Source: Candidatus Rokuibacteriota bacterium (GTDB lineage Bacteria; Methylomirabilota; Methylomirabilia; Rokubacteriales; CSP1-6). From it: a stretch of 64,000 nucleotides of DNA. Position numbers and translations under genes: made by a program. The notes beneath the pieces were generated by a model, which made no database searches, was not told where the DNA came from, and worked only from the letters and a program-made list of their open reading frames with translations. Shown one piece after another: positions 22,490-29,438 of the stretch. Position 1 is the first letter of the stretch; each line of letters begins with the position of its first letter. The DNA lies in contig JACPCF010000059.1 of the NCBI GenBank assembly GCA_016179965.1, forward strand, positions 972-64,971, read 5' to 3'.

Positions 22490-23806
22490 CTACTTGGGGA
22501 TCGGCTTCAGCACCGTGACCGTGGGGTTCGCGAGATAGCGGCTGGCAACGCGCTGGATATCCTCGAGCGTGACGGCCTCCACGGCCTTGGCGTAGCGATC
22601 GAGGAACTCGTGTCCCACGCCGGCGAGCTCGAAAAAGGCGAAGTACCACACCTGGCGCGCGTTGGTGCGGCGGTCCATGGCCAGATTCCCCAGCAGGAAG
22701 GCCTTGGCCCGCTGGAGTTCGTCCGGCGTCACCCGCTCCTCCCGAATCCGCGCCACCTCCCGCCGGAGCCCCTCCTCCGCGCGGACCAGGTTCTCGGCCG
22801 CGGTCCCCATGTGGATCACAAAAAAGCTGGTATCCGCGCGCGAGGGGTAGAGCGCGCCGAGCGAGTAGGCCAGCCCCTGATTGTCCCGGAGCTCCACGAA
22901 GAGGCGGCCGGCCATTCCGCCGCCCAGGAGGGTGCTGAGAACCTTGACGCCCGCATAGTCCGGCTGGCTCAGCGACGGCGCCAGGTACCCCATGAGGATC
23001 TGCGCCTGGGCGGCGGGGCGCTCCAGGACCTGGCGCGCGTTGGCTGCGGTGGGAGGCGGCGGGGCCGAGTCGTCCGCCCCAGAGCCCGCCGGCAGGTCGG
23101 CGAACAGCCGCCCCACCTCCTCCACCACCGCCTGCGCCGAGACCTGGCCGCTGACCGCGAGCACGATCCGGCCGGCGCGGTAGTGGCGCCGATAATGGTC
23201 CAAGAGCTGCGCCCGATCCAGCCGCTCCACCGTTTGGCGCTGGCCGAGCGCCGGGCGCCCGTAGGGGTGGGGACCGTAGAGGGAGGCCAAGAGCGTGTCA
23301 AACGTGAGGGGGAACGGCAGATCGCCGCGGTTGCGGATCTGGTTCAGGATCACGCGCCGCTCGTTCTCGATCTCGTCGGCCGGCAGGCTCGGCCTGAGGG
23401 CCACATCGGCGAGGAGGTCCAGCAGGGCCTTCCAGTGCCGAGCGAGCGCCGTGCCCCGAAGCTCGGCGTAATCCGTGTCCCCCGAGGCGCTCACGCTGCC
23501 GCCGATCTCCTCGGCCGCCTCCGCGATCTCCTGGGCGCTCCGGCGGGCCGTCCCTTTGACCATCACGTGCTGGAGGAGATTCGAGATCCCCGCGTTCTCG
23601 GGACGCTCCCAGCGCCCGCCCATCCTCACTTGGAGCGACACGGCCACCACGGGCGCGGCCGGGTTTTCCCGTACCAGGAGCGTGAGACCGTTGGCGAATC
23701 GGTGACGGAGGATGGGGGGAACGTGGCCGGCAGCCCAGGAGTTGCCGGGAATCATGGCGAGCCCCCCCGCCACCATCAGCCAGAGCGCCGCCGCCCGAGG
23801 CTTCAT
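22490..23806 (-). CDS. M16 family peptidase-like protein, probably the non-catalytic partner (HxxEH replaced by NxxQH).
   Basis: It has a signal peptide and the M16 fold, with ISNLLQHVMVKG at the zinc-motif position. It overlaps the upstream M16 gene by ATGA. Confidence 0.75.
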   Translation of the reverse strand: MKPRAAALWLMVAGGLAMIPGNSWAAGHVPPILRHRFANGLTLLVRENPAAPVVAVSLQVRMGGRWERPENAGISNLLQHVMVKGTARRSAQEIAEAAEEIGGSVSASGDTDYAELRGTALARHWKALLDLLADVALRPSLPADEIENERRVILNQIRNRGDLPFPLTFDTLLASLYGPHPYGRPALGQRQTVERLDRAQLLDHYRRHYRAGRIVLAVSGQVSAQAVVEEVGRLFADLPAGSGADDSAPPPPTAANARQVLERPAAQAQILMGYLAPSLSQPDYAGVKVLSTLLGGGMAGRLFVELRDNQGLAYSLGALYPSRADTSFFVIHMGTAAENLVRAEEGLRREVARIREERVTPDELQRAKAFLLGNLAMDRRTNARQVWYFAFFELAGVGHEFLDRYAKAVEAVTLEDIQRVASRYLANPTVTVLKPIPK

Positions 23807-25158
23807 CGGCCTTCGCTCGCCGGGGTGAAGGCCAGCACGGCGTAGCGGTCGGCGAGGAGGTAGCGCCGGGCCGCTTCCTGGATCTGCTCCCGGGTGACGC
23901 TCCGGACGCGCTCCAGGTAGCGGAGCTCCTCCTCCAGACGCCAGACCGTCTCGGCCAGGCCGTAGGCGTAGGCCAGCCCCTCGGCCGTCTCGATGGCAAA
24001 GGCGTGCTCGGCCTCGGCCGCCGTGACGGCGCGCCGGCGCTCGACTTCGCTGACGCCGTCGGTCTGGATGCGCCGGATCTCCGCCAGGATCACCGCCTCG
24101 ACCTTTTCCAGATCCTTGGGTTCCAGTTGGGCAGAGACGCTGACGAGTCCCCCGCCCTGCAGCGCGCCATAGCTGGCGCGAATGGACGAGACCAGCCGGC
24201 TCCGCTCGCGCAGCGTCTGGTTGAGGCGCGAGCTCCGCGAGCCGCCGAGGATGGACGCCAGAAGGTCCACGGCAAACACGTCTGGATGATCCAGCGGAGG
24301 GGCGCTCCACCCCAGCGCCAGATACGCCTGCTTCTCGTTCCGGGACACCACGTGCCGCCGCACCCCCGCCAGGGCCGGCGGGAGCGGAAGAGGCGAGCGG
24401 CGGGAGCCAACGGCCGGGACCCTGGCGAACGTCCGGGCCACCGCGGCGCGGATCTCGTCGGGATCGACGGCGCCGATCACGACCAGCGCCATGTTGTCGG
24501 GAACGTAGTGGCGCTTGTAGTAGCCCCGGATCGTTTCCCGGGTGGCCGCCTTCAGCGCGCCCTCGTCGCCCAGGACCGGGCGCCCGTAGGGGTGTCCCGG
24601 AAACACGTGGGCGTAGAGCTGGCGGAAGAGCGACGACCGAGGGTTATCCTCGCCGAGCCGAACCTCCTCGAAGACCACCTGCCGCTCGCGGTCCACCTCC
24701 CTGGGGTCAAAGGCCGAGTTGAAGGCGACATCGGCCAGCACTTCGATGGCGCGGGTCGCCTGCCGGGTGGGCAGGAGCATGTAGTAGAAGGTGTAGTCGA
24801 GAGAGGTGCCCGCGTTCGTCCGGCCGCCGACCGCTTCGACCTCCCGGTCCATGAAGCCCGGCCCCCGCGTCTCGGTCCCCTTAAAGAGCATGTGCTCAAC
24901 CAAGTGGGAGAACCCGAGCTCCTCCGGACGCTCGTCGCGGCCGCCGACGCCGATCCAGAGGTGGAGCGCCACCACATCGCTCGCCCGGTGCTCCTGGATG
25001 ATCACCCGCATGCCGTTCTCGAGCACTAGACGCGTCGGCCGATCGAGGCCCGCCGGGCCCGCCGAAGGCGCGGAGCCGGTCACGCTGCACCCCGAGAGAA
25101 GAAGCACCAGGGGCCATCCCCACCGGAAAATCGCGCGCGCGCGGGCAGCCGCTGACAT
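23803..25158 (-). CDS. M16 family zinc metallopeptidase (pitrilysin-like), probable lipoprotein.
   Basis: The HxxEH motif is FSHLVEHMLFKG. The N-terminus has a signal peptide with a lipobox (LLLSGC). Confidence 0.8.
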   Translation of the reverse strand: MSAAARARAIFRWGWPLVLLLSGCSVTGSAPSAGPAGLDRPTRLVLENGMRVIIQEHRASDVVALHLWIGVGGRDERPEELGFSHLVEHMLFKGTETRGPGFMDREVEAVGGRTNAGTSLDYTFYYMLLPTRQATRAIEVLADVAFNSAFDPREVDRERQVVFEEVRLGEDNPRSSLFRQLYAHVFPGHPYGRPVLGDEGALKAATRETIRGYYKRHYVPDNMALVVIGAVDPDEIRAAVARTFARVPAVGSRRSPLPLPPALAGVRRHVVSRNEKQAYLALGWSAPPLDHPDVFAVDLLASILGGSRSSRLNQTLRERSRLVSSIRASYGALQGGGLVSVSAQLEPKDLEKVEAVILAEIRRIQTDGVSEVERRRAVTAAEAEHAFAIETAEGLAYAYGLAETVWRLEEELRYLERVRSVTREQIQEAARRYLLADRYAVLAFTPASEGR

Positions 25159-26501: not shown

Positions 26502-26648
26502 CCCTTCCCCCGGCCTTTCGGGGCGGGCAGATTGTCGGTCTTGGGTCGGGCAGAAAGCCAGCGGAGAGGGGTCAAAAAGGGTTGGTATCCTCGCCCTATC
26601 GTCATGTAACATATTGATAAGTGGGAACAATAGTTTATGCCTCCCCCC

Positions 26649-26664
26649 TGGCATCCATCCTGCT
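26649..26664 (+). promoter_or_regulatory. Candidate sigma54-type -24/-12 promoter element (TGGCAT-N6-TGCT) in a low-GC leader upstream of the repeat-protein gene.
   Basis: The GG and GC dinucleotides are spaced exactly 12 nt apart (TGGCATccatccTGCTtt). The surrounding ~300 nt is ~50% GC against a ~68% background. Confidence 0.25.
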
Positions 26665-26805
26665 TTACCTATTGGCAAGCCAAGACCATCCGGAGTAGAG
26701 AGACTTCTGAAAAAGGAGGTGGGGGAAGCAGGTCGGCCGGGGGGTAGGCAAAGGTTCCGTGAGACACACGACTCAACAAGACAAAAGGAGAAAGGGCAAA
26801 CCCAA

Positions 26806-27717
26806 ATGAGAAAGGTGTTCGCAACCCTGATGGTGTTCTTCCTCTTCGTGGCGCTTTCGCCGATGGTGGTCGAGGCGGCTTCGCCTTGCCCGCCTGAGGT
26901 GCAGGCGGCCAAGGACATGCTGGCCAAGCAGGTTGCCAGGGGCCAGGATGTGCAGGCGCCCCGCGCCCTCGCCGGTGCCCGGAGCCAGGATGTGCAGGCT
27001 CCTCGCGGCCAGGATGTCCAGGCGCCCCGTGGTCAGGATGTTCAGGCCCCTCGCGGCCAGGATGTGCAGGCGCCCCGCTCCCTCGCCGGTGCCCGGAGCC
27101 AGGATGTTCAGGCTCCTCGCGGTCAGGATGTCCAGGCCCCTCGCGGTCAGGATGTCCAGGCCCCTCGTGGCCAGGACATTCAGGCGCCCCGCGCCCTAGG
27201 CCGTAGTCAGGATGTGCAGGCGCCTCGCGGTCAGGATGTGCAAGCGCCCCGCGGCCAGGATGTTCAGGCCCCTCGCGGTCAGGATATCCAGGCTCCTCGC
27301 GGCCAGGATGTTCAGGCGCCCCGCGGTAAGCGCGTCGAGGCGCCGCGTGGTCAGGATGTCCAGGCCCCTCGCGGTCAGGATGTGCAAGCGCCCCGCGGTC
27401 AGGATGTCCAGGCCCCTCGCGGCCAGGATGTCCAGGCCCCTCGCGGCCAGGATGTTCAGGCTCCTCGCGGTCAGGATGTGCAGGCGCCGCGTGGTCAGGA
27501 TGTCCAGGCCCCTCGCGGTCAGGATATCCAGGCTCCTCGCGGCCAGGATGTGCAGGCGCCCCGCGCCGGCACCACTGGCGCCAAGGCTGCCCAGGCGCCC
27601 CGCGCTGACAAGGCTCGGATCCTCGTGAACGAGGCCGAGGCCGCGTGCAAGGCCGGCGACACCGCCAAGGCGACCGAGAAGGCCAAGGCCGCCATGGCGA
27701 TCCTGCAGCAGAAGTAA
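26806..27717 (+). CDS. Secreted octapeptide-repeat protein: a signal peptide, 26 x (R/G)GQDVQAPR units, and a short Lys/Ala-rich C-terminal tail.
   Basis: A strong RBS (AAAGGAGAAAGGG) is followed by ATG. The N-terminus MRKVFATLMVFFLFVALSPMVVEA is a signal peptide. Residues 46-253 are 26 in-frame octapeptide units. The gene has its own terminator. Confidence 0.8.
   Translation: MRKVFATLMVFFLFVALSPMVVEAASPCPPEVQAAKDMLAKQVARGQDVQAPRALAGARSQDVQAPRGQDVQAPRGQDVQAPRGQDVQAPRSLAGARSQDVQAPRGQDVQAPRGQDVQAPRGQDIQAPRALGRSQDVQAPRGQDVQAPRGQDVQAPRGQDIQAPRGQDVQAPRGKRVEAPRGQDVQAPRGQDVQAPRGQDVQAPRGQDVQAPRGQDVQAPRGQDVQAPRGQDVQAPRGQDIQAPRGQDVQAPRAGTTGAKAAQAPRADKARILVNEAEAACKAGDTAKATEKAKAAMAILQQK
26941..27564 (+). 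repeat. In-frame coding tandem array: 26 x 24 bp (consensus GGYCAGGATGTSCAGGCSCCYCGY).
   Basis: Units differ mostly at synonymous third positions. ALAGA/SLAGA/ALG linkers occur every fourth unit near the start of the array. Confidence 0.9.
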
Positions 27718-27736
27718 GTTCCCTCGGTTCCTCCAG

Positions 27737-27771
27737 GGCCCCAGGGCAACCCCCTGGGGCCTTCTTTTTTT
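27737..27771 (+). terminator. Rho-independent terminator of the repeat-protein gene.
   Basis: GGCCCCAGGG-caacc-CCCTGGGGCC, a 10-bp perfect stem, is followed by TTCTTTTTTT. Confidence 0.75.
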
Positions 27772-27800
27772 CTCCACCCAACGGGTATAGAATCCCCCCG

Positions 27801-29258
27801 ATGAGTCTGACCCCCCTGCGCACCGCCGCGACGACCGGCCTCGCGTTGAGCCTGCTGCTGAGCTGGACCGGGCCCGGTCGGGCCGAGCGGACGCTCTCAG
27901 TCCAGGAAGCCATCCTCCGGGCCAAGCCCGCCGTTGCCCTCGTCGTGGCGGAGGTCGTGGCCGAGGTTCGGCTGAACTGCGGGAGCGGCGAGATCCAGCA
28001 CACGCCTCCCCCCTTCAGGGAGACCGGCACCGGGTGGTTCATTGACGCGCGGGGGTTCATCATCACGAACGGTCACGTCGTCCAGCCAGCCCACACCCCG
28101 CCCCGGTGGATGGTCAACTCGTTCGCCAAGCGGGCCATCGAGTCCGCCTGCGTGCCGGCCATCCTCAAGCGGATGGGGATCGCCCCCGGCGAGCGCCCCG
28201 TCGCCGAGGACCAGGTCAAGCGGCAGGCCCTCGACAGCGTCCTGCCCTCCACGAAGGTCAAGCTGGACCCGGGCATCTTCGTCGTCCTCTCCAACGGCAC
28301 GCGCGTGCGCGCCGAGGTGAAAAAGTACAGCCCGCCGCTCTCCGTGGGGGACGATCCGGAAGGCAAGATGTCCGGCCGGGACCTGGCCCTCCTGAAAATC
28401 CCGGGGAAGGACTTCCCGATCCTGCCGCTGGCGGACTCGAAGGCCGCCAAGATCGGCGACCCGATCCACATCCTGGGCTTTCCCGGGGTGGTGCTGAGCC
28501 ACGAGCTCCTGAACCAATCCGCCACCGTTGAGGCCTCCGTCACCAACGGCGCCGTCTCGGGCTTCAAGCAGGACAAGGCGAACCAGCCCGTGATCCAGAC
28601 CGACGCCCCCGCGGCCTGGGGCAACAGCGGCGGGCCGGCCGTCACGGCCAGAGGCGAGATGGTGGGGGTGCTGACCTTCGTCTCCCTCGCCCCGGGGCCC
28701 GAGGGCGGAATCGTCCAGGGCTTCAACTTCATCATCCCGTCGAACGCGGTCCGGGACTTCATCCAGGGGACGGAGGTGAAGGTCAGCGCCGAGAGCCCCT
28801 TCAACAAGGTCTGGTGGGCCGGGCTCGTGGAAGAGTTCGACGGCAACTACAAGGCCGCCGAGCGGTACTTCAGCGAGGCGAACAAGCTCGTCCCCAACCT
28901 CCCCGACGTCAAGCGGATGCTCGCGGAGGCCCAGGACAAGATCAAGAACCCGCCGCCGCGGCCGTTCCCCTGGGCGTGGGTCACACTCGCCGTCACGCTC
29001 ACGAGCCTCGGCAGCTATGGCGCCATGTGGGGGCGCAAGTGGCGGAAGAATCGCTACCGCGTGGCCCCCTCCGTGGTCATCCGTCTCCTGGAGGAGGGCA
29101 AGAATCCCCTGGTCCTCGACGTGAGGAAGCCGTCCGCCTTCGAGACGAGCCCCCTCAAGGTCCCCGGGGCCCTGTACGTCTCCCCCGACGACCTCGACGC
29201 GGGCAAGTTCGACATCGAGGTCGAGCCCAACCGCACCGTCATCGCCTACTGCACCTGA
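27801..29258 (+). CDS. Trypsin-like (S1/HtrA-type, no PDZ) serine protease with a signal peptide, one C-proximal TM helix and a C-terminal rhodanese domain ending at an in-frame TGA.
   Basis: The catalytic triad context is TNGHVV / DLALLKI / GNSGGPAV. The TM segment is WAWVTLAVTLTSLGSYGAMWG. The rhodanese N-terminal part is LVLDVRKPSAFE…VIAYCT, then TGA. A TATAGAAT -10-like box lies 8 nt upstream of the ATG. Confidence 0.75.
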   Translation: MSLTPLRTAATTGLALSLLLSWTGPGRAERTLSVQEAILRAKPAVALVVAEVVAEVRLNCGSGEIQHTPPPFRETGTGWFIDARGFIITNGHVVQPAHTPPRWMVNSFAKRAIESACVPAILKRMGIAPGERPVAEDQVKRQALDSVLPSTKVKLDPGIFVVLSNGTRVRAEVKKYSPPLSVGDDPEGKMSGRDLALLKIPGKDFPILPLADSKAAKIGDPIHILGFPGVVLSHELLNQSATVEASVTNGAVSGFKQDKANQPVIQTDAPAAWGNSGGPAVTARGEMVGVLTFVSLAPGPEGGIVQGFNFIIPSNAVRDFIQGTEVKVSAESPFNKVWWAGLVEEFDGNYKAAERYFSEANKLVPNLPDVKRMLAEAQDKIKNPPPRPFPWAWVTLAVTLTSLGSYGAMWGRKWRKNRYRVAPSVVIRLLEEGKNPLVLDVRKPSAFETSPLKVPGALYVSPDDLDAGKFDIEVEPNRTVIAYCT

Positions 29259-29438
29259 CCCGACGAAGTCACGAGCGCCAGGATGGCGCAAAAGCTCAGG
29301 CGGATGGGCTACAAGGATGTCAAGATCCTGAAGGGTGGCCTCGGGGCCTGGGCCAACGCGGGCCTTCCGCTCGAGGCCAAAGCCGGCCTGCCGACGATCG
29401 GCGTCGAGCTCTACAAGAGCATGCTCGGAAGCGTCTGA
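29259..29438 (+). other. In-frame continuation of the rhodanese domain after the TGA (PDEVTSARMAQKLRRMGYKDVKILKGGLGAWANAGLPLE…).
   Basis: It has the same frame as the protease ORF. It aligns to the C-terminal half of single-domain rhodaneses (helix after the active-site loop, plus the GGxxAW motif). Confidence 0.55.

What the first reader, a model, noticed from the sequence alone, without database searches (positions are those of the whole stretch)
26806..27717. Secreted protein built from 26 tandem (R/G)GQDVQAPR octapeptides, with synonymous-only divergence between DNA units
A 303-aa ORF has a strong RBS, a clear signal peptide and its own terminator. 208 of its residues are 26 in-frame 8-aa repeats with consensus GQDVQAPR. 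The 24-bp DNA units are not identical. They differ at wobble positions (GGC/GGT, GTG/GTC/GTT, CAG/CAA, GCG/GCC/GCT, CCC/CCT, CGC/CGT) while the peptide stays constant. This argues that the peptide sequence itself is constrained, rather than being a recent slippage expansion. Linker variants (ALAGARS/SLAGARS/ALGRS) appear every fourth unit near the 5' end, which suggests an older 4-unit super-repeat. Each unit carries one Arg and one Asp. No known family was recognised.
Basis: seen in the sequence. Interest (0 to 1): 0.85.

Follow-up and report, generated by a model that had tools for sequence, protein, structure and literature searches.

The report
Secreted repeat-loop protein of Rokubacteria
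This is a real gene for an exported protein, found only in the uncultured soil phylum Methylomirabilota (Rokubacteria), in which a small helical clasp holds a long floppy loop made of 24 copies of one short peptide that selection keeps constant while the DNA drifts; its function is unknown and no described family matches it.

Summary
ORF 26806..27717 (+) encodes 303 aa: a signal peptide, an N-terminal helix with Cys28, a 208-residue repeat region, and a C-terminal helical hairpin with Cys281. It is followed by a strong terminator. There are 24 clean 8-aa units plus one degenerate unit, not 26. The 24 units give 17 different DNA sequences but only 4 peptides (pS 0.51, pN 0.046). Only the annotated frame shows this pattern.

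The gene belongs to an undescribed family: at least 658 proteins, and 104 genomic relatives, almost all from Methylomirabilota/Rokubacteria MAGs. Members share the two-cysteine helical frame and carry 6-34 copies of x-Q-[DE]-[VI]-Q-[AS]-P-R. The low-pN, high-pS pattern is family-wide (median pS 0.48, pN 0.07 in 70 genes).

AlphaFold2 predicts the terminal helices with confidence and the array as disordered. New here: 42 of 47 upstream regions carry a sigma-54 -24/-12 element, and the gene is monocistronic.

Function is unknown. My best model is a multivalent short-motif loop in the cell envelope. Rivals are a peptide polyprotein, a hydrophilin-like protectant, and a fibre.

In passing, the neighbouring HtrA-like protease carries a rhodanese domain with a conserved in-frame TGA, probably selenocysteine.

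The parts
26525..26554 (+). Two direct copies of GGGCAGA (26525 and 26548), about 100-125 nt upstream of the -24 element. This could be an activator (bEBP) binding region, or the tail of the upstream GGDEF gene's terminator. Unresolved.
   Evidence: One search gives the coordinates. One search shows it is invariant in five close relatives. Its function was not tested.
26649..26664 (+). Sigma-54-type promoter element TGGCAT-CCATC-CTGCT (-24 GG, -12 GC), 142-157 nt upstream of the start codon.
   Evidence: One search finds the match at 26648-26664. It is invariant in close relatives. An equivalent element scoring at least 8 of 10 is present on the sense strand in 42 of 47 unique upstream regions of family genes. 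The antisense strand has 2, and shuffles average 2.1 with a maximum of 7.
26786..26796 (+). Shine-Dalgarno-like AGGAGAAAGGG. The AGGAG is 15 nt and the GGG is 9 nt before the ATG.
   Evidence: Sequence. Invariant in five relatives.
26806..27717 (+). Complete coding sequence, 303 aa plus stop.
   Evidence: It is the only frame under purifying selection.
26806..26877 (+). Sec-type signal peptide, residues 1-24, with predicted cleavage VEA|AS.
   Evidence: Inspection, plus the AF2 helix at residues 2-16. The same M[KR]K-hydrophobic-AxA layout occurs in 30 aligned homologues.
26878..26940 (+). N-terminal clasp helix (residues 25-45, ASPCPPEVQAAKDMLAKQVAR) with the invariant Cys28 (26887-26889).
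   Evidence: AF2 helix at residues 30-47 with pLDDT about 87. C28 is invariant, and P29, E31, V32, K36 and L39 are at least 90% conserved.
26941..27564 (+). Repeat region, residues 46-253: 24 octapeptide units with three linkers (ALAGAR 26965-26982, SLAGAR 27079-27096, ALGR 27193-27204). Predicted to be disordered.
   Evidence: AF2 pLDDT is about 45 and no secondary structure is predicted.
27565..27603 (+). Degenerate last unit and junction, residues 254-266 (AGTTGAKAAQAPR).
27595..27714 (+). C-terminal helical hairpin (residues 264-303) with the invariant Cys281 (27646-27648) in the LVxEAEAAC motif.
   Evidence: AF2 helices at residues 264-282 and 286-301 with pLDDT about 90. C281, A280 and L273 are invariant. 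The last Cys lies 20-23 residues from the C-terminus in 53 of 53 complete proteins.
27735..27773 (+). Intrinsic terminator: a 12-bp GC-rich stem followed by a T-run.
   Evidence: Folding energy is -26 kcal/mol. A comparable hairpin plus T-run follows the gene in 58 of 78 loci.
27801..29438 (+). Context gene. It encodes an HtrA-like serine protease (periplasmic), a TM helix and a cytoplasmic rhodanese-like domain. An in-frame TGA at 29256-29258 is a candidate selenocysteine codon, and a hairpin lies at 29275-29289. This gene is immediately downstream of the repeat gene in about 45 of 87 loci.
22490..25158 (-). Context genes. A divergently transcribed pair of exported M16 peptidases. M16a (23803..25158) has the active HLVEH motif and a lipobox. 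M16b (22490..23806) has the degenerate NLLQH motif and a signal peptide. This pair is the most conserved neighbour of the primary copy.

Best explanation
Shown or strongly supported: this is a genuine, monocistronic gene with a sigma-54-type promoter. It encodes a Sec-exported envelope protein of a family confined to Methylomirabilota/Rokubacteria. The N-terminal helix and the C-terminal helical hairpin are the constant frame of the family. The segment between them is an intrinsically disordered, near-neutral polyampholyte loop with no aromatic residues. In this gene the loop carries 24 copies of the heptapeptide Q-D-[V/I]-Q-A-P-R, each separated by one residue. Selection acts on the peptide and not on the DNA.

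Inferred: the three helices pack into a small bundle that is stapled by a disulfide between the two invariant cysteines, so the array forms a closed loop.

Inferred working mechanism: the loop is a multivalent display of a short linear motif. An envelope partner recognises that motif. The best candidates for the partner are the exported peptidases that flank the primary copy, namely the HtrA-like protease and the M16 active/inactive pair. Copy number sets the valency or reach. Expression is switched on by an unidentified sigma-54 activator.
For: Gene reality: only + frame 0 shows pN/pS well below 1 (0.11, against 0.37 to 11.7 in the other frames).

Peptide-level selection:
- Within this gene pS is 0.51 and pN is 0.046. 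Across 70 genes the medians are pS 0.48 and pN 0.07.
- In 643 units, Q2 is 97% conserved, D/E3 93%, V/I4 86%, Q5 98%, A/S6 100%, P7 99% and R8 100%. The spacer between motifs varies from 1 to 3 residues.
- Within single arrays (L003, L024) the same Ser position is encoded by both TCN and AGY codons. This implies parallel change at the amino-acid level.
- More distant members keep only [DE]-x-x-A-P-R, or have no repeats at all, yet retain both helices and both cysteines. The array is therefore an expansion of the helix 1 to helix 2 linker.

Structure:
- AF2 predicts helices at residues 30-47, 264-282 and 286-301 with pLDDT 87-91, and the array at pLDDT about 45.
- The repeat-less homologue P0139 gives three helices with pTM 0.54.
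- Exactly two Cys occur in 50 of 53 complete proteins, at fixed positions.

Expression:
- A sigma-54 element is present in 42 of 47 upstream regions against about 2 expected. This includes paralogues in unrelated contexts.
- A terminator follows the gene in 58 of 78 loci.

Context:
- The repeat gene is transcribed divergently from the M16-M16-rhomboid genes in most loci.
- An HtrA-like protease follows directly in about 45 of 87 loci.
- Both M16 proteins carry export signals.
Against: - No partner has been identified.
- The protease is absent downstream in about 20 primary loci, where the ABC-transporter genes (permease and ATPase) follow directly. It is also absent next to all paralogues.
- A strong terminator separates the repeat gene from the protease.
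- Synteny with the M16, rhomboid, TlyA, NAD kinase and RecN genes may simply be inherited gene order.
- The disulfide and the packing of the bundle are inferred. I could not read model coordinates.
- AF2 'disorder' is a lack of confident prediction, made from a 30-sequence alignment of a repeat.
- No bEBP is encoded in the window or in any locus.
- No expression or protein data are available.
Confidence: 0.4

Rival explanations
1. Polyprotein precursor. After export, envelope proteases cut the array at every unit. The cut could fall after the invariant Pro-Arg, or one residue later in an R-X|Q pattern as used by MPP-like M16 pairs. This would release about 24 identical hepta- or octapeptides per molecule, to serve as a signal, a public good or an antimicrobial. 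The mechanism would parallel yeast alpha-factor and fungal KEX2-processed repeat proteins.
For: - The protein has a signal peptide followed by tandem identical peptides, each ending in an invariant Arg preceded by Pro.
- The conserved core is set off by a variable 1-3 residue spacer, which is the layout of core peptide plus spacer.
- Selection keeps all units within a protein identical, even through different codons.
- The primary copy sits between an exported active/inactive M16 pair and a periplasmic HtrA-like protease.
- Fungal KEPs show that this architecture exists in nature (PMC7329392, PMC9769878, PMC6339444).
Against: - HtrA-family proteases characteristically cut after aliphatic residues, not after Arg (own knowledge). 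The neighbour's closest solved relatives are DegQ, DegS and DegP.
- The protease neighbour is missing in about 20 primary loci and next to all paralogues.
- A terminator separates the two genes.
- There is no dibasic site, no peptide exporter or receptor, and no modifying enzyme nearby.
- The conserved disulfide-capable helical frame has no obvious role in a mere precursor.
Confidence: 0.17
2. Hydrophilin or LEA-like protectant, or an entropic spacer. The function would lie in bulk properties of the loop: very hydrophilic, Gly- and Pro-rich, charge-balanced and disordered. It could retain water, prevent aggregation or keep envelope layers apart during desiccation or osmotic stress in soil. Array length would tune the amount of protective polymer.
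For: - The mature protein has GRAVY -1.01 and Gly 9.7%. The repeat region has GRAVY -1.25 and 29 basic against 24 acidic residues.
- It contains no aromatic residue.
- The array is predicted to be disordered.
- Copy number varies widely, from 6 to 34.
- The hosts are soil and groundwater organisms.
- The gene has an inducible-type promoter.
Against: - Residues Q2, Q5, P7 and R8 are 97-100% conserved across a phylum, while the flanking helices are only about 50-65% identical. That is more specific than a bulk property would require.
- Lineage-specific variants sweep whole arrays.
- No LEA or hydrophilin Pfam family matches.
Confidence: 0.2
3. Regular structural polymer. The octapeptide array would fold only on oligomerisation or surface deposition, for example into a triple beta-helix or polyproline-II fibre. 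It would then form part of a sheath, an S-layer attachment or a matrix.
For: - The period is a strict 8 residues within each protein.
- There is a weak Pfam match to the T4 gp5 octapeptide beta-helix (E = 3.8e-4, 21 bits).
- Single-chain AF2 cannot see folds that depend on oligomerisation.
Against: - The gp5 match is below the gathering score of 30.9 bits.
- The V-to-G spacing differs from the gp5 VxGxxxxx register (read directly from the sequence).
- Each unit has only one semi-hydrophobic position, and that position is A, T, S or Q in some lineages.
- The period is 9 or 10 in some members, and 8- and 9-residue units are mixed within single arrays (L015).
- AF2 predicts no strands.
Confidence: 0.07
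4. The feature is not functional as a protein. It would be a neutral slippage-generated repeat, an assembly artefact, or a by-product of a gene on the other strand.
For: - Long ORFs exist in other frames and on the minus strand.
- Short-read MAGs show N-gaps inside the arrays (L010, L033, L048), so array lengths in assemblies can be wrong.
Against: - pN/pS is well below 1 only in the annotated frame.
- At least 658 homologues share the same architecture.
- The promoter, signal peptide, cysteines and terminator are all conserved.
- Long-read MAGs carry arrays of 19-34 units.
Confidence: 0.02

Closest known systems
Fungal KEX2-processed repeat proteins (KEPs), yeast alpha-factor precursor and Ustilago Rep1
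   Same: Both have an N-terminal secretion signal followed by many tandem, nearly identical short peptides, each ending at a basic residue. The peptide sequence is conserved between repeats (PMC7329392, PMC9769878, PMC6339444).
   Different: KEPs are eukaryotic and use dibasic KR/RR sites cut by a Golgi kexin. This protein has a single Arg preceded by Pro, no kexin, and a conserved two-cysteine helical frame around the array. Processing has not been shown. There is no homology.
Hydrophilins and LEA-type repeat proteins (for example B. subtilis GsiB and plant group-3 LEA)
   Same: Both are highly hydrophilic, Gly-rich, disordered and built from tandem short motifs. Both are stress-type small proteins (own knowledge for the class; values).
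   Different: Those proteins are cytoplasmic, have 11- or 20-residue motifs that form helices on drying, and lack Pro in every unit. This protein is exported, has Pro every 8 residues and a helical clasp. No Pfam LEA match was found.
ZraP, Spy and CpxP periplasmic stress proteins
   Same: All are small, exported, largely helical envelope proteins. E. coli zraP is transcribed from a sigma-54 promoter under a bEBP (own knowledge). This family has a sigma-54 element.
   Different: There is no LTxxQ motif and no Pfam match. The ZraP, Spy and CpxP proteins have no repeat loop and no conserved Cys pair. No bEBP gene lies next to this gene.
Phage T4 gp5 C-terminal octapeptide beta-helix (PF22178)
   Same: Both have an eight-residue period containing Val and Gly. 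There is a weak HMM match (E = 3.8e-4).
   Different: The match is below the Pfam threshold. The register differs (VxxxxGxx here, VxGxxxxx in gp5). AF2 predicts no beta structure. The period is not fixed across the family.
Pro-rich periplasm-spanning linkers (TonB, TolA, LpoB)
   Same: All are extended or disordered Pro-containing repeats in the envelope, where length matters (own knowledge).
   Different: Those linkers are tethered to a membrane at one end and carry a functional domain at the other. Their repeats tolerate substitution. This protein has no membrane anchor, both ends form a single small domain, and the motif is nearly invariant.
Multi-core RiPP precursors (thiovarsolin NF033878, cyanobactins)
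   Same: Both have tandem core-like peptides within one precursor.
   Different: The HMM score is 8.4 bits against a cut-off of 35. This protein has a Sec signal rather than a leader peptide. No modifying enzymes are found in any of the loci examined.

Membership tests
Peptidase_M23 (PF01551) | Match over the whole catalytic domain (about 96 profile positions) | tested here: not met
   The score of 35.8 bits exceeds the gathering score, but the match covers only profile positions 4-24, inside the repeat (residues 237-257). It is a repeat artefact.
Peptidase_M23 (PF01551) | Zinc ligands HxxxD and HxH | tested here: not met
   The protein contains no histidine.
T4 gp5 C-terminal beta-helix (PF22178) | HMM score above the gathering threshold | tested here: not met
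   The score is 21 bits against a threshold of 30.9.
T4 gp5 C-terminal beta-helix (PF22178) | VxGxxxxx register and predicted beta structure | tested here: not met
   The sequence shows V-Q-A-P-R-G, so Gly is 5 residues after Val rather than 2. AF2 predicts no strands and pLDDT is about 45.
Multi-core RiPP precursor (thiovarsolin NF033878) | HMM score above cut-off, plus neighbouring modification enzymes | tested here: not met
   One search gives 8.4 bits against a cut-off of 35. The neighbours are peptidases, a GGDEF protein and ABC-transporter genes (permease and ATPase), with no RiPP enzymes.
Processed repeat polyprotein (KEP-like, functional class) | N-terminal secretion signal | tested here: met
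   Judged by inspection of residues 1-24 and conservation in 30 homologues. No dedicated predictor was available.
Processed repeat polyprotein (KEP-like, functional class) | At least three tandem near-identical peptides | tested here: met
   24 units with 4 distinct peptides.
Processed repeat polyprotein (KEP-like, functional class) | A defined protease site flanking every unit, with a cognate protease | tested here: inconclusive
   Pro-Arg is invariant at each unit end, but there is no dibasic site. The neighbouring protease is HtrA-like and its specificity is unknown. It is absent from many loci.
Processed repeat polyprotein (KEP-like, functional class) | Released peptides detected | not testable with these tools
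   This needs peptidomics on native material.
Sigma-54-dependent gene | -24 GG / -12 GC element with correct spacing upstream, on the sense strand | tested here: met
   TGGCATCCATCCTGCT at 26649-26664.
Sigma-54-dependent gene | The element is conserved in orthologues and paralogues beyond chance | tested here: met
   42 of 47 on the sense strand, 2 on the antisense strand, and a shuffle mean of 2.1. With the strict pattern, 23 of 48 match against 0.07 expected.
Sigma-54-dependent gene | A cognate enhancer-binding protein and its binding sites | tested here: inconclusive
   No GAFTGA or ESELFGH motif is present in the window or in the 87 loci. The direct repeats GGGCAGA upstream remain unassigned. 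The activator may be encoded elsewhere.
Hydrophilin (descriptive class) | Gly above 6% and mean hydrophilicity above 1 | tested here: met
   Gly is 9.7% and GRAVY is -1.01 for the mature protein. The criteria are recalled from Garay-Arroyo et al. 2000 (own knowledge).
Hydrophilin (descriptive class) | Induction by, or protection against, water deficit | not testable with these tools
   No expression data are available.
CpxP/Spy/ZraP | LTxxQ motifs or a Pfam match | tested here: not met
   No such Pfam hit appears at E up to 10. The sequence contains no LTxxQ.
Bacterial lipoprotein | Lipobox [LVI][ASTVI][GAS]C at the end of the signal peptide | tested here: not met
   The sequence reads VVEAASPC, with Pro at -1 and Ala at -3. 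Homologues have Q, N or T at -1.
Rhodanese-related selenoprotein NF041203, 'form 3, CxU' (neighbouring gene, not the finding itself) | An in-frame UGA in the C-x-U motif, Cys-containing orthologues, and a hairpin downstream of the UGA | tested here: met
   TGA occurs in 38 of 40 unique orthologous sequences, TGT (Cys) in L016, and GAA in L001/L073. NF041203 is the best rhodanese match at 75.7 bits, below the 115 cut-off, as a domain within a fusion. The hairpin GCGCC-N5-GGCGC lies 17 nt after the UGA and is invariant in 34 of 34, with no covariation. The family is listed in PMC13188914. The Sec machinery genes were not examined.

The most novel reading that the evidence does not exclude
The array is a bacterial Sec-exported prohormone-like polyprotein. 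Under sigma-54 control, the cell exports a clasped precursor. Envelope peptidases (the MPP-like M16 pair, the HtrA-like protease, or both) then cut it into two dozen identical QDVQAPR-type peptides, possibly with N-terminal pyroglutamate. These peptides would act as a phylum-specific extracellular signal or effector. The lineage-specific motif variants would be dialects that co-evolve with a receptor.
Probability: 0.13. Interest if true: 0.85.

Novelty: new variant of a known kind. Interest (0 to 1): 0.55.

Why it matters
Methylomirabilota/Rokubacteria are widespread, uncultured soil and groundwater bacteria, and very little of their cell biology is known. This family is present in most of their genomes, often in several copies. 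It has its own inducible-type promoter and a strong terminator. It matches no Pfam or NCBIfam family, so it is a conspicuous unknown of the phylum's envelope.

It is also a clean natural example of selection holding dozens of tandem peptides identical while the DNA is kept diverse. Rare T-ending codons are used, and even both serine codon families appear within one array. This resembles the codon scrambling that engineers use to stabilise repetitive genes. It shows that repeat homogeneity can be maintained at the protein level, and not only by DNA-level concerted evolution.

If the loop proves to be a multivalent ligand or a peptide precursor, it would define a new envelope signalling or proteolysis module.

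The array is also a practical marker for strain typing, and a known trap for short-read assembly.

Tried and rejected
- Pfam Peptidase_M23 hit: rejected as a repeat artefact. Only 21 of 96 profile positions match, and the protein has no His.
- Pfam gp5 beta-helix and Cornifin hits, and the NCBIfam thiovarsolin hit: all below threshold, and the register or context is wrong.
- PDB sequence search: nothing.
- Foldseek of the repeat-less homologue's model against PDB: only generic helical bundles, with E at least 0.8.
- Rfam scan of the 5' region for a riboswitch, for example c-di-GMP given the GGDEF neighbour: nothing.
- Literature searches for the motif and for Rokubacteria repeat proteins: nothing relevant.
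- Antisense or alternative-frame gene: rejected.
- Operon with the downstream protease: weakened by the conserved terminator and by loci without the protease.
- Conserved context of paralogues: none found. The neighbours are unrelated and include RND efflux, a putative Rieske oxygenase (judged by eye) and an AI-2E transporter.
- Nearby sigma-54 activator: none.
- Concordance of motif variants among paralogues of one genome: not consistent. L009 has QDIQAPR, while L018 and L026 have QDIQSPR.
- A conserved GAT codon as a DNA-level signal: GAT is 96% in this gene but only 35% family-wide, so it is lineage-specific.
- Exact-sequence look-up of the window protein: not on record.
- The Cys28-Cys281 distance could not be read from the model, because coordinates are not exposed.
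Full report
**1. The observation**

The ORF at 26806..27717 on the plus strand encodes 303 residues. It starts with a typical Sec signal peptide, MRKVFATLMVFFLFVALSPMVVEA|AS, and has no lipobox. An AGGAG lies 15 nt before the ATG. A 12-bp GC-rich hairpin with a T-run follows at 27735-27773.

Tandem Repeats Finder reports periods of 24 and 48 nt. Parsing the protein gives 24 clean octapeptides: 17 GQDVQAPR, 3 SQDVQAPR, 3 GQDIQAPR and 1 GKRVEAPR. One degenerate unit, AKAAQAPR, follows.

Sixteen of those residues belong to the linkers ALAGAR, SLAGAR and ALGR, which follow units 1, 5 and 9.

The 24 units have 17 different DNA sequences but only four peptide sequences. By the Nei-Gojobori method, pS between units is 0.51 and pN is 0.046. 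As a control, I treated the same DNA in the other five frames. Those frames give pN/pS of 0.37 to 11.7, and one contains stops. The long antisense ORFs are therefore by-products of a GC-rich repeat.

**2. A family, not a singleton**

A word-seeded HMMER search found at least 658 proteins at E ≤ 0.001. All are unnamed or annotated as hypothetical. Where a source names the organism, it is Rokubacteria or Methylomirabilota.

A pattern scan of one genome from each of 185,579 species found 104 encoded relatives. Of the 80 loci kept, nearly all are Methylomirabilota/Rokubacteria MAGs. A few carry other bin labels, including an archaeon, and these are most simply explained as mis-binned contigs.

All members share one architecture:
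- a signal peptide;
- a helix beginning C-P-[PA]-E-V..AK..L;
- one unit followed by SLAGAR;
- an array of units;
- a C-terminal L[VI]xEAEAAC[KA].GD....A..KA..A...LK.

Fifty of 53 complete proteins have exactly two cysteines. The second always lies 20-23 residues from the C-terminus.

Over 643 units, the composition is x, Q (97%), D/E (93%), V/I (86%), Q (98%), A/S (100%), P (99%), R (100%). The spacer between cores is usually one residue (G or S), but it is two or three residues in some lineages. Copy number ranges from 6 to 34, with a median of 17. With 24 units, the window gene is at the high end for short-read assemblies and ordinary for long-read ones.

A full HMMER scan of 1.84 billion representatives with only the C-terminal 50 residues found just 20 proteins. 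Some of these have the same two helices and cysteines but different repeats:
- [ED][SA][NA]APR units;
- seven-residue xQEAPR units;
- no recognisable repeats at all (P0139, 109 aa, and P0130).

The constant part of the family is therefore the helical frame. The array is an expansion of the linker between helix 1 and helix 2. The minimal shared element of the repeats is an acidic residue followed by x-x-A-P-R.

**3. Selection on the peptide**

The pattern of low pN and high pS between units holds in 70 family genes, with median pS 0.48 and median pN 0.07.

Three refinements follow.

First, arrays are homogenised in a lineage-specific way. Each protein has its own dominant unit, such as QEVQAPR, QDAQAPR, QDIQSPR, QDTQAPR, QDVQAGR or QELQAPR. 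Mean unit identity is 0.90 within proteins and 0.80 between them.

Second, this homogeneity is not only DNA-level conversion. In L003 and L024, the Ser of QDIQSPR is encoded by both TCN and AGY codons within one array. Those codon families cannot interconvert by a synonymous step. That points to parallel selection for the same residue in every unit.

Third, codon usage in the window's array is far from that of its neighbours. GAT is 96% against 21%, GGT 58% against 4%, and CCT 58% against 6%. GC3 is 0.73 against 0.88-0.95. My inference is that DNA diversity is itself favoured, because it reduces recombination and slippage. This was not tested.

Segmental duplications are visible in the window's array. 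A 114-bp block (linker plus four units) recurs at about 89% identity. A six-unit block recurs at 91%.

**4. Structure**

AlphaFold2 was run with a 30-sequence alignment. It predicts helices at residues 30-47, 264-282 and 286-301 with pLDDT 87-91. The whole array has pLDDT of about 45 and no secondary structure. The repeat-less homologue P0139 gives three helices with pTM 0.54.

Cys28 sits at the start of helix 1 and Cys281 at the end of helix 2. In an up-down-up bundle these two positions are neighbours. I therefore infer a disulfide that closes the array into a loop. I could not inspect coordinates, so this is unverified.

Foldseek against the PDB returns only generic helical bundles.

The mature protein has no His, Trp, Tyr or Phe. 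It is strongly hydrophilic, with GRAVY -1.01, and the array has GRAVY -1.25. The array is nearly charge-balanced.

**5. Expression signals**

The 300-nt upstream region is 86% identical among five close relatives. It contains TGGCATCCATCCTGCT at 26649-26664, which is a sigma-54 -24/-12 element.

I scored every family gene's upstream region against TGGCAC-N5-TTGC, requiring the GG and GC dinucleotides. Forty-two of 47 unique regions reach 8 of 10 on the sense strand. Two do so on the antisense strand. Dinucleotide shuffles give a mean of 2.1 and a maximum of 7. A strict pattern gives 23 of 48 against 0.07 expected. Paralogues in unrelated genomic contexts also carry the element.

No enhancer-binding protein is encoded in the window or in any locus. 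No Rfam family matches the leader.

A strong terminator follows the gene in 58 of 78 loci. The family is therefore a self-contained, probably sigma-54-dependent transcription unit.

**6. Genomic context**

The primary copy sits in a conserved position. On the minus strand lie RecN, NAD kinase, TlyA, rhomboid, M16 and M16. The repeat gene follows on the plus strand. In the window's clade, a GAF-GGDEF gene is inserted upstream of it.

Downstream there is an HtrA-like protease in about 45 of 87 loci. In about 20 loci, the ABC-transporter permease and ATPase genes follow directly. A HIT-family gene lies further downstream in the loci annotated by the look-up of encoding contigs.

The M16 pair is exported. 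M16a has a lipobox and the active HLVEH motif. M16b has a signal peptide and the degenerate NLLQH motif. This is the active/inactive arrangement seen in MPP-like heterodimers.

The protease's nearest solved relatives are DegQ, DegS and DegP.

Paralogues lie in unrelated contexts with no protease nearby. The peptidase neighbourhood is therefore suggestive but not compelling. It could be inherited synteny.

**7. Mechanism**

What is shown: a real, exported protein under purifying selection, with a conserved helical frame and a disordered repeat loop, and a conserved sigma-54-type promoter.

What is inferred: the disulfide clasp and the function.

I favour a multivalent short-linear-motif loop recognised by an envelope partner (confidence 0.4). 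Near-invariance of four motif positions across a phylum exceeds what bulk properties need. The variable spacer and period argue against a rigid solenoid. The conserved clasp argues against a disposable precursor.

The rivals are:
- a processed polyprotein, at 0.17. It is attractive because of the invariant Pro-Arg at each unit end and the flanking peptidases. It is weakened by the HtrA-type neighbour, the terminator and the loci without a protease;
- a hydrophilin-like protectant or spacer, at 0.2;
- a fibre, at 0.07;
- an artefact, at 0.02.

**8. Comparison with known families and novelty**

No described family matches.
- The above-threshold Pfam Peptidase_M23 hit covers 21 of 96 profile positions inside the repeat, and the protein has no histidine, so it is an artefact.
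- The gp5 beta-helix, Cornifin and thiovarsolin hits are all below threshold.

The closest analogues by mode of action are fungal KEX2-processed repeat proteins (PMC7329392, PMC9769878, PMC6339444), hydrophilins, and sigma-54-controlled ZraP. The protein is a member of none of these.

I rate it as a new variant of a known kind, namely secreted tandem-repeat disordered proteins. It represents an undescribed, phylum-restricted family with an unusual clasp-and-loop architecture.

**9. Seen in passing**

The neighbouring protease gene continues in frame past a TGA at 29256-29258, into a conserved rhodanese-like domain. The same codon is TGA in 38 of 40 unique orthologous sequences. It is TGT (Cys) in L016 and GAA in L001/L073.

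An invariant hairpin, GCGCC-N5-GGCGC, begins 17 nt after the TGA in 34 of 34 sequences. This holds at synonymous sites too, although without covariation. In the Cys variant L016 the hairpin is degraded.

The best rhodanese model is NF041203, 'rhodanese_LYCAU (seleno)protein'. This is the known 'form 3, CxU' selenoprotein family (PMC13188914).

The annotated 485-aa protease is therefore most likely a 545-residue selenoprotein. It fuses a periplasmic HtrA-like domain, through one TM helix, to a cytoplasmic Sec-containing rhodanese domain.

Noticed in passing
window 27801-29438 (TGA at 29256-29258; hairpin 29275-29289): The downstream HtrA-like protease gene reads through an in-frame TGA into a conserved rhodanese-like domain (motif AYC-T-[TGA]-PDE). 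The codon is TGA in 38 of 40 unique orthologues, TGT (Cys) in L016 and GAA in L001/L073. An invariant hairpin lies 17 nt downstream. The best family match is NF041203, a rhodanese-related (seleno)protein. It is probably a selenoprotein fused to a protease through a TM helix. The stop-delimited 485-aa ORF (27801..29258) would then be a truncation of that protein.
   Followed up: partly
window 26649-26664, and the equivalent positions in L001-L087: A sigma-54 -24/-12 promoter element lies upstream of the repeat gene. It is conserved in 42 of 47 family genes, including paralogues. No enhancer-binding protein is encoded nearby.
   Followed up: yes
window 26941-27564: Codon usage in the array is strongly skewed towards T-ending codons that are rare in neighbouring genes. 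GAT is 96% against 21%, GGT 58% against 4% and CCT 58% against 6%. GC3 is 0.73 against about 0.9. This may reflect selection for DNA diversity within the repeat. The GAT bias is lineage-specific, at 35% family-wide.
   Followed up: partly
L003 6001-6654 and L024 5001-5849: Within single arrays, the Ser of QDIQSPR is encoded by both TCN and AGY codon families. This implies independent changes to the same amino acid in different units.
   Followed up: partly
window 22490-25158 (minus strand): The divergent M16 peptidase pair is exported and has the active/inactive arrangement of MPP-like heterodimers. M16a has a lipobox and HLVEH. M16b has a signal peptide and the degenerate NLLQH.
   Followed up: partly
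window 26525-26554 and 26710-26725: Two conserved elements lie upstream of, or within, the leader. One is the direct repeat GGGCAGA x2, about 100 nt upstream of the -24 element. The other is a Shine-Dalgarno-like AAAAAGGAGGTGGGGG about 85 nt before the start codon. Both are invariant in five close relatives, and their roles are unknown.
   Followed up: no
P0122, P0125, P0140, P0139, P0130: Some family members share the same two-cysteine helical frame but have other repeats ([ED][SA][NA]APR, or seven-residue xQEAPR) or no repeats at all. They show that the array is an expanded inter-helix linker.
   Followed up: partly
L010, L033, L048 (runs of N inside the array): Short-read MAG assemblies break or scaffold across the array. 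Copy numbers from such assemblies (for example 6 units in L073) are therefore unreliable. Long-read MAGs carry 19-34 units.
   Followed up: no
L023, L028, L031, L037, L042, L046, L052, L067, L069, L075: Contigs with the typical Rokubacteria synteny are filed under bins named Verrucomicrobiia, Acidoferrum, Nitrosocosmicus (an archaeon), Dormiibacterota, Limnocylindria, Deferrimicrobiaceae or Actinomycetes. These are probably binning errors in those MAG sets.
   Followed up: no
L006 2-598 and 5992-6525; L017 5001-6137 and 8464-8898: Two family genes lie within a few kb of each other on one contig. Several genomes hold three copies (for example L009, L018 and L026 from one MAG), so the family is multi-copy.
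   Followed up: partly
window 26878-27714 (mature protein): The mature protein contains no His, Trp, Tyr or Phe. It would therefore be invisible at 280 nm, and tryptic digestion would reduce it to one repeated octapeptide. This is relevant for any proteomic search.
   Followed up: no
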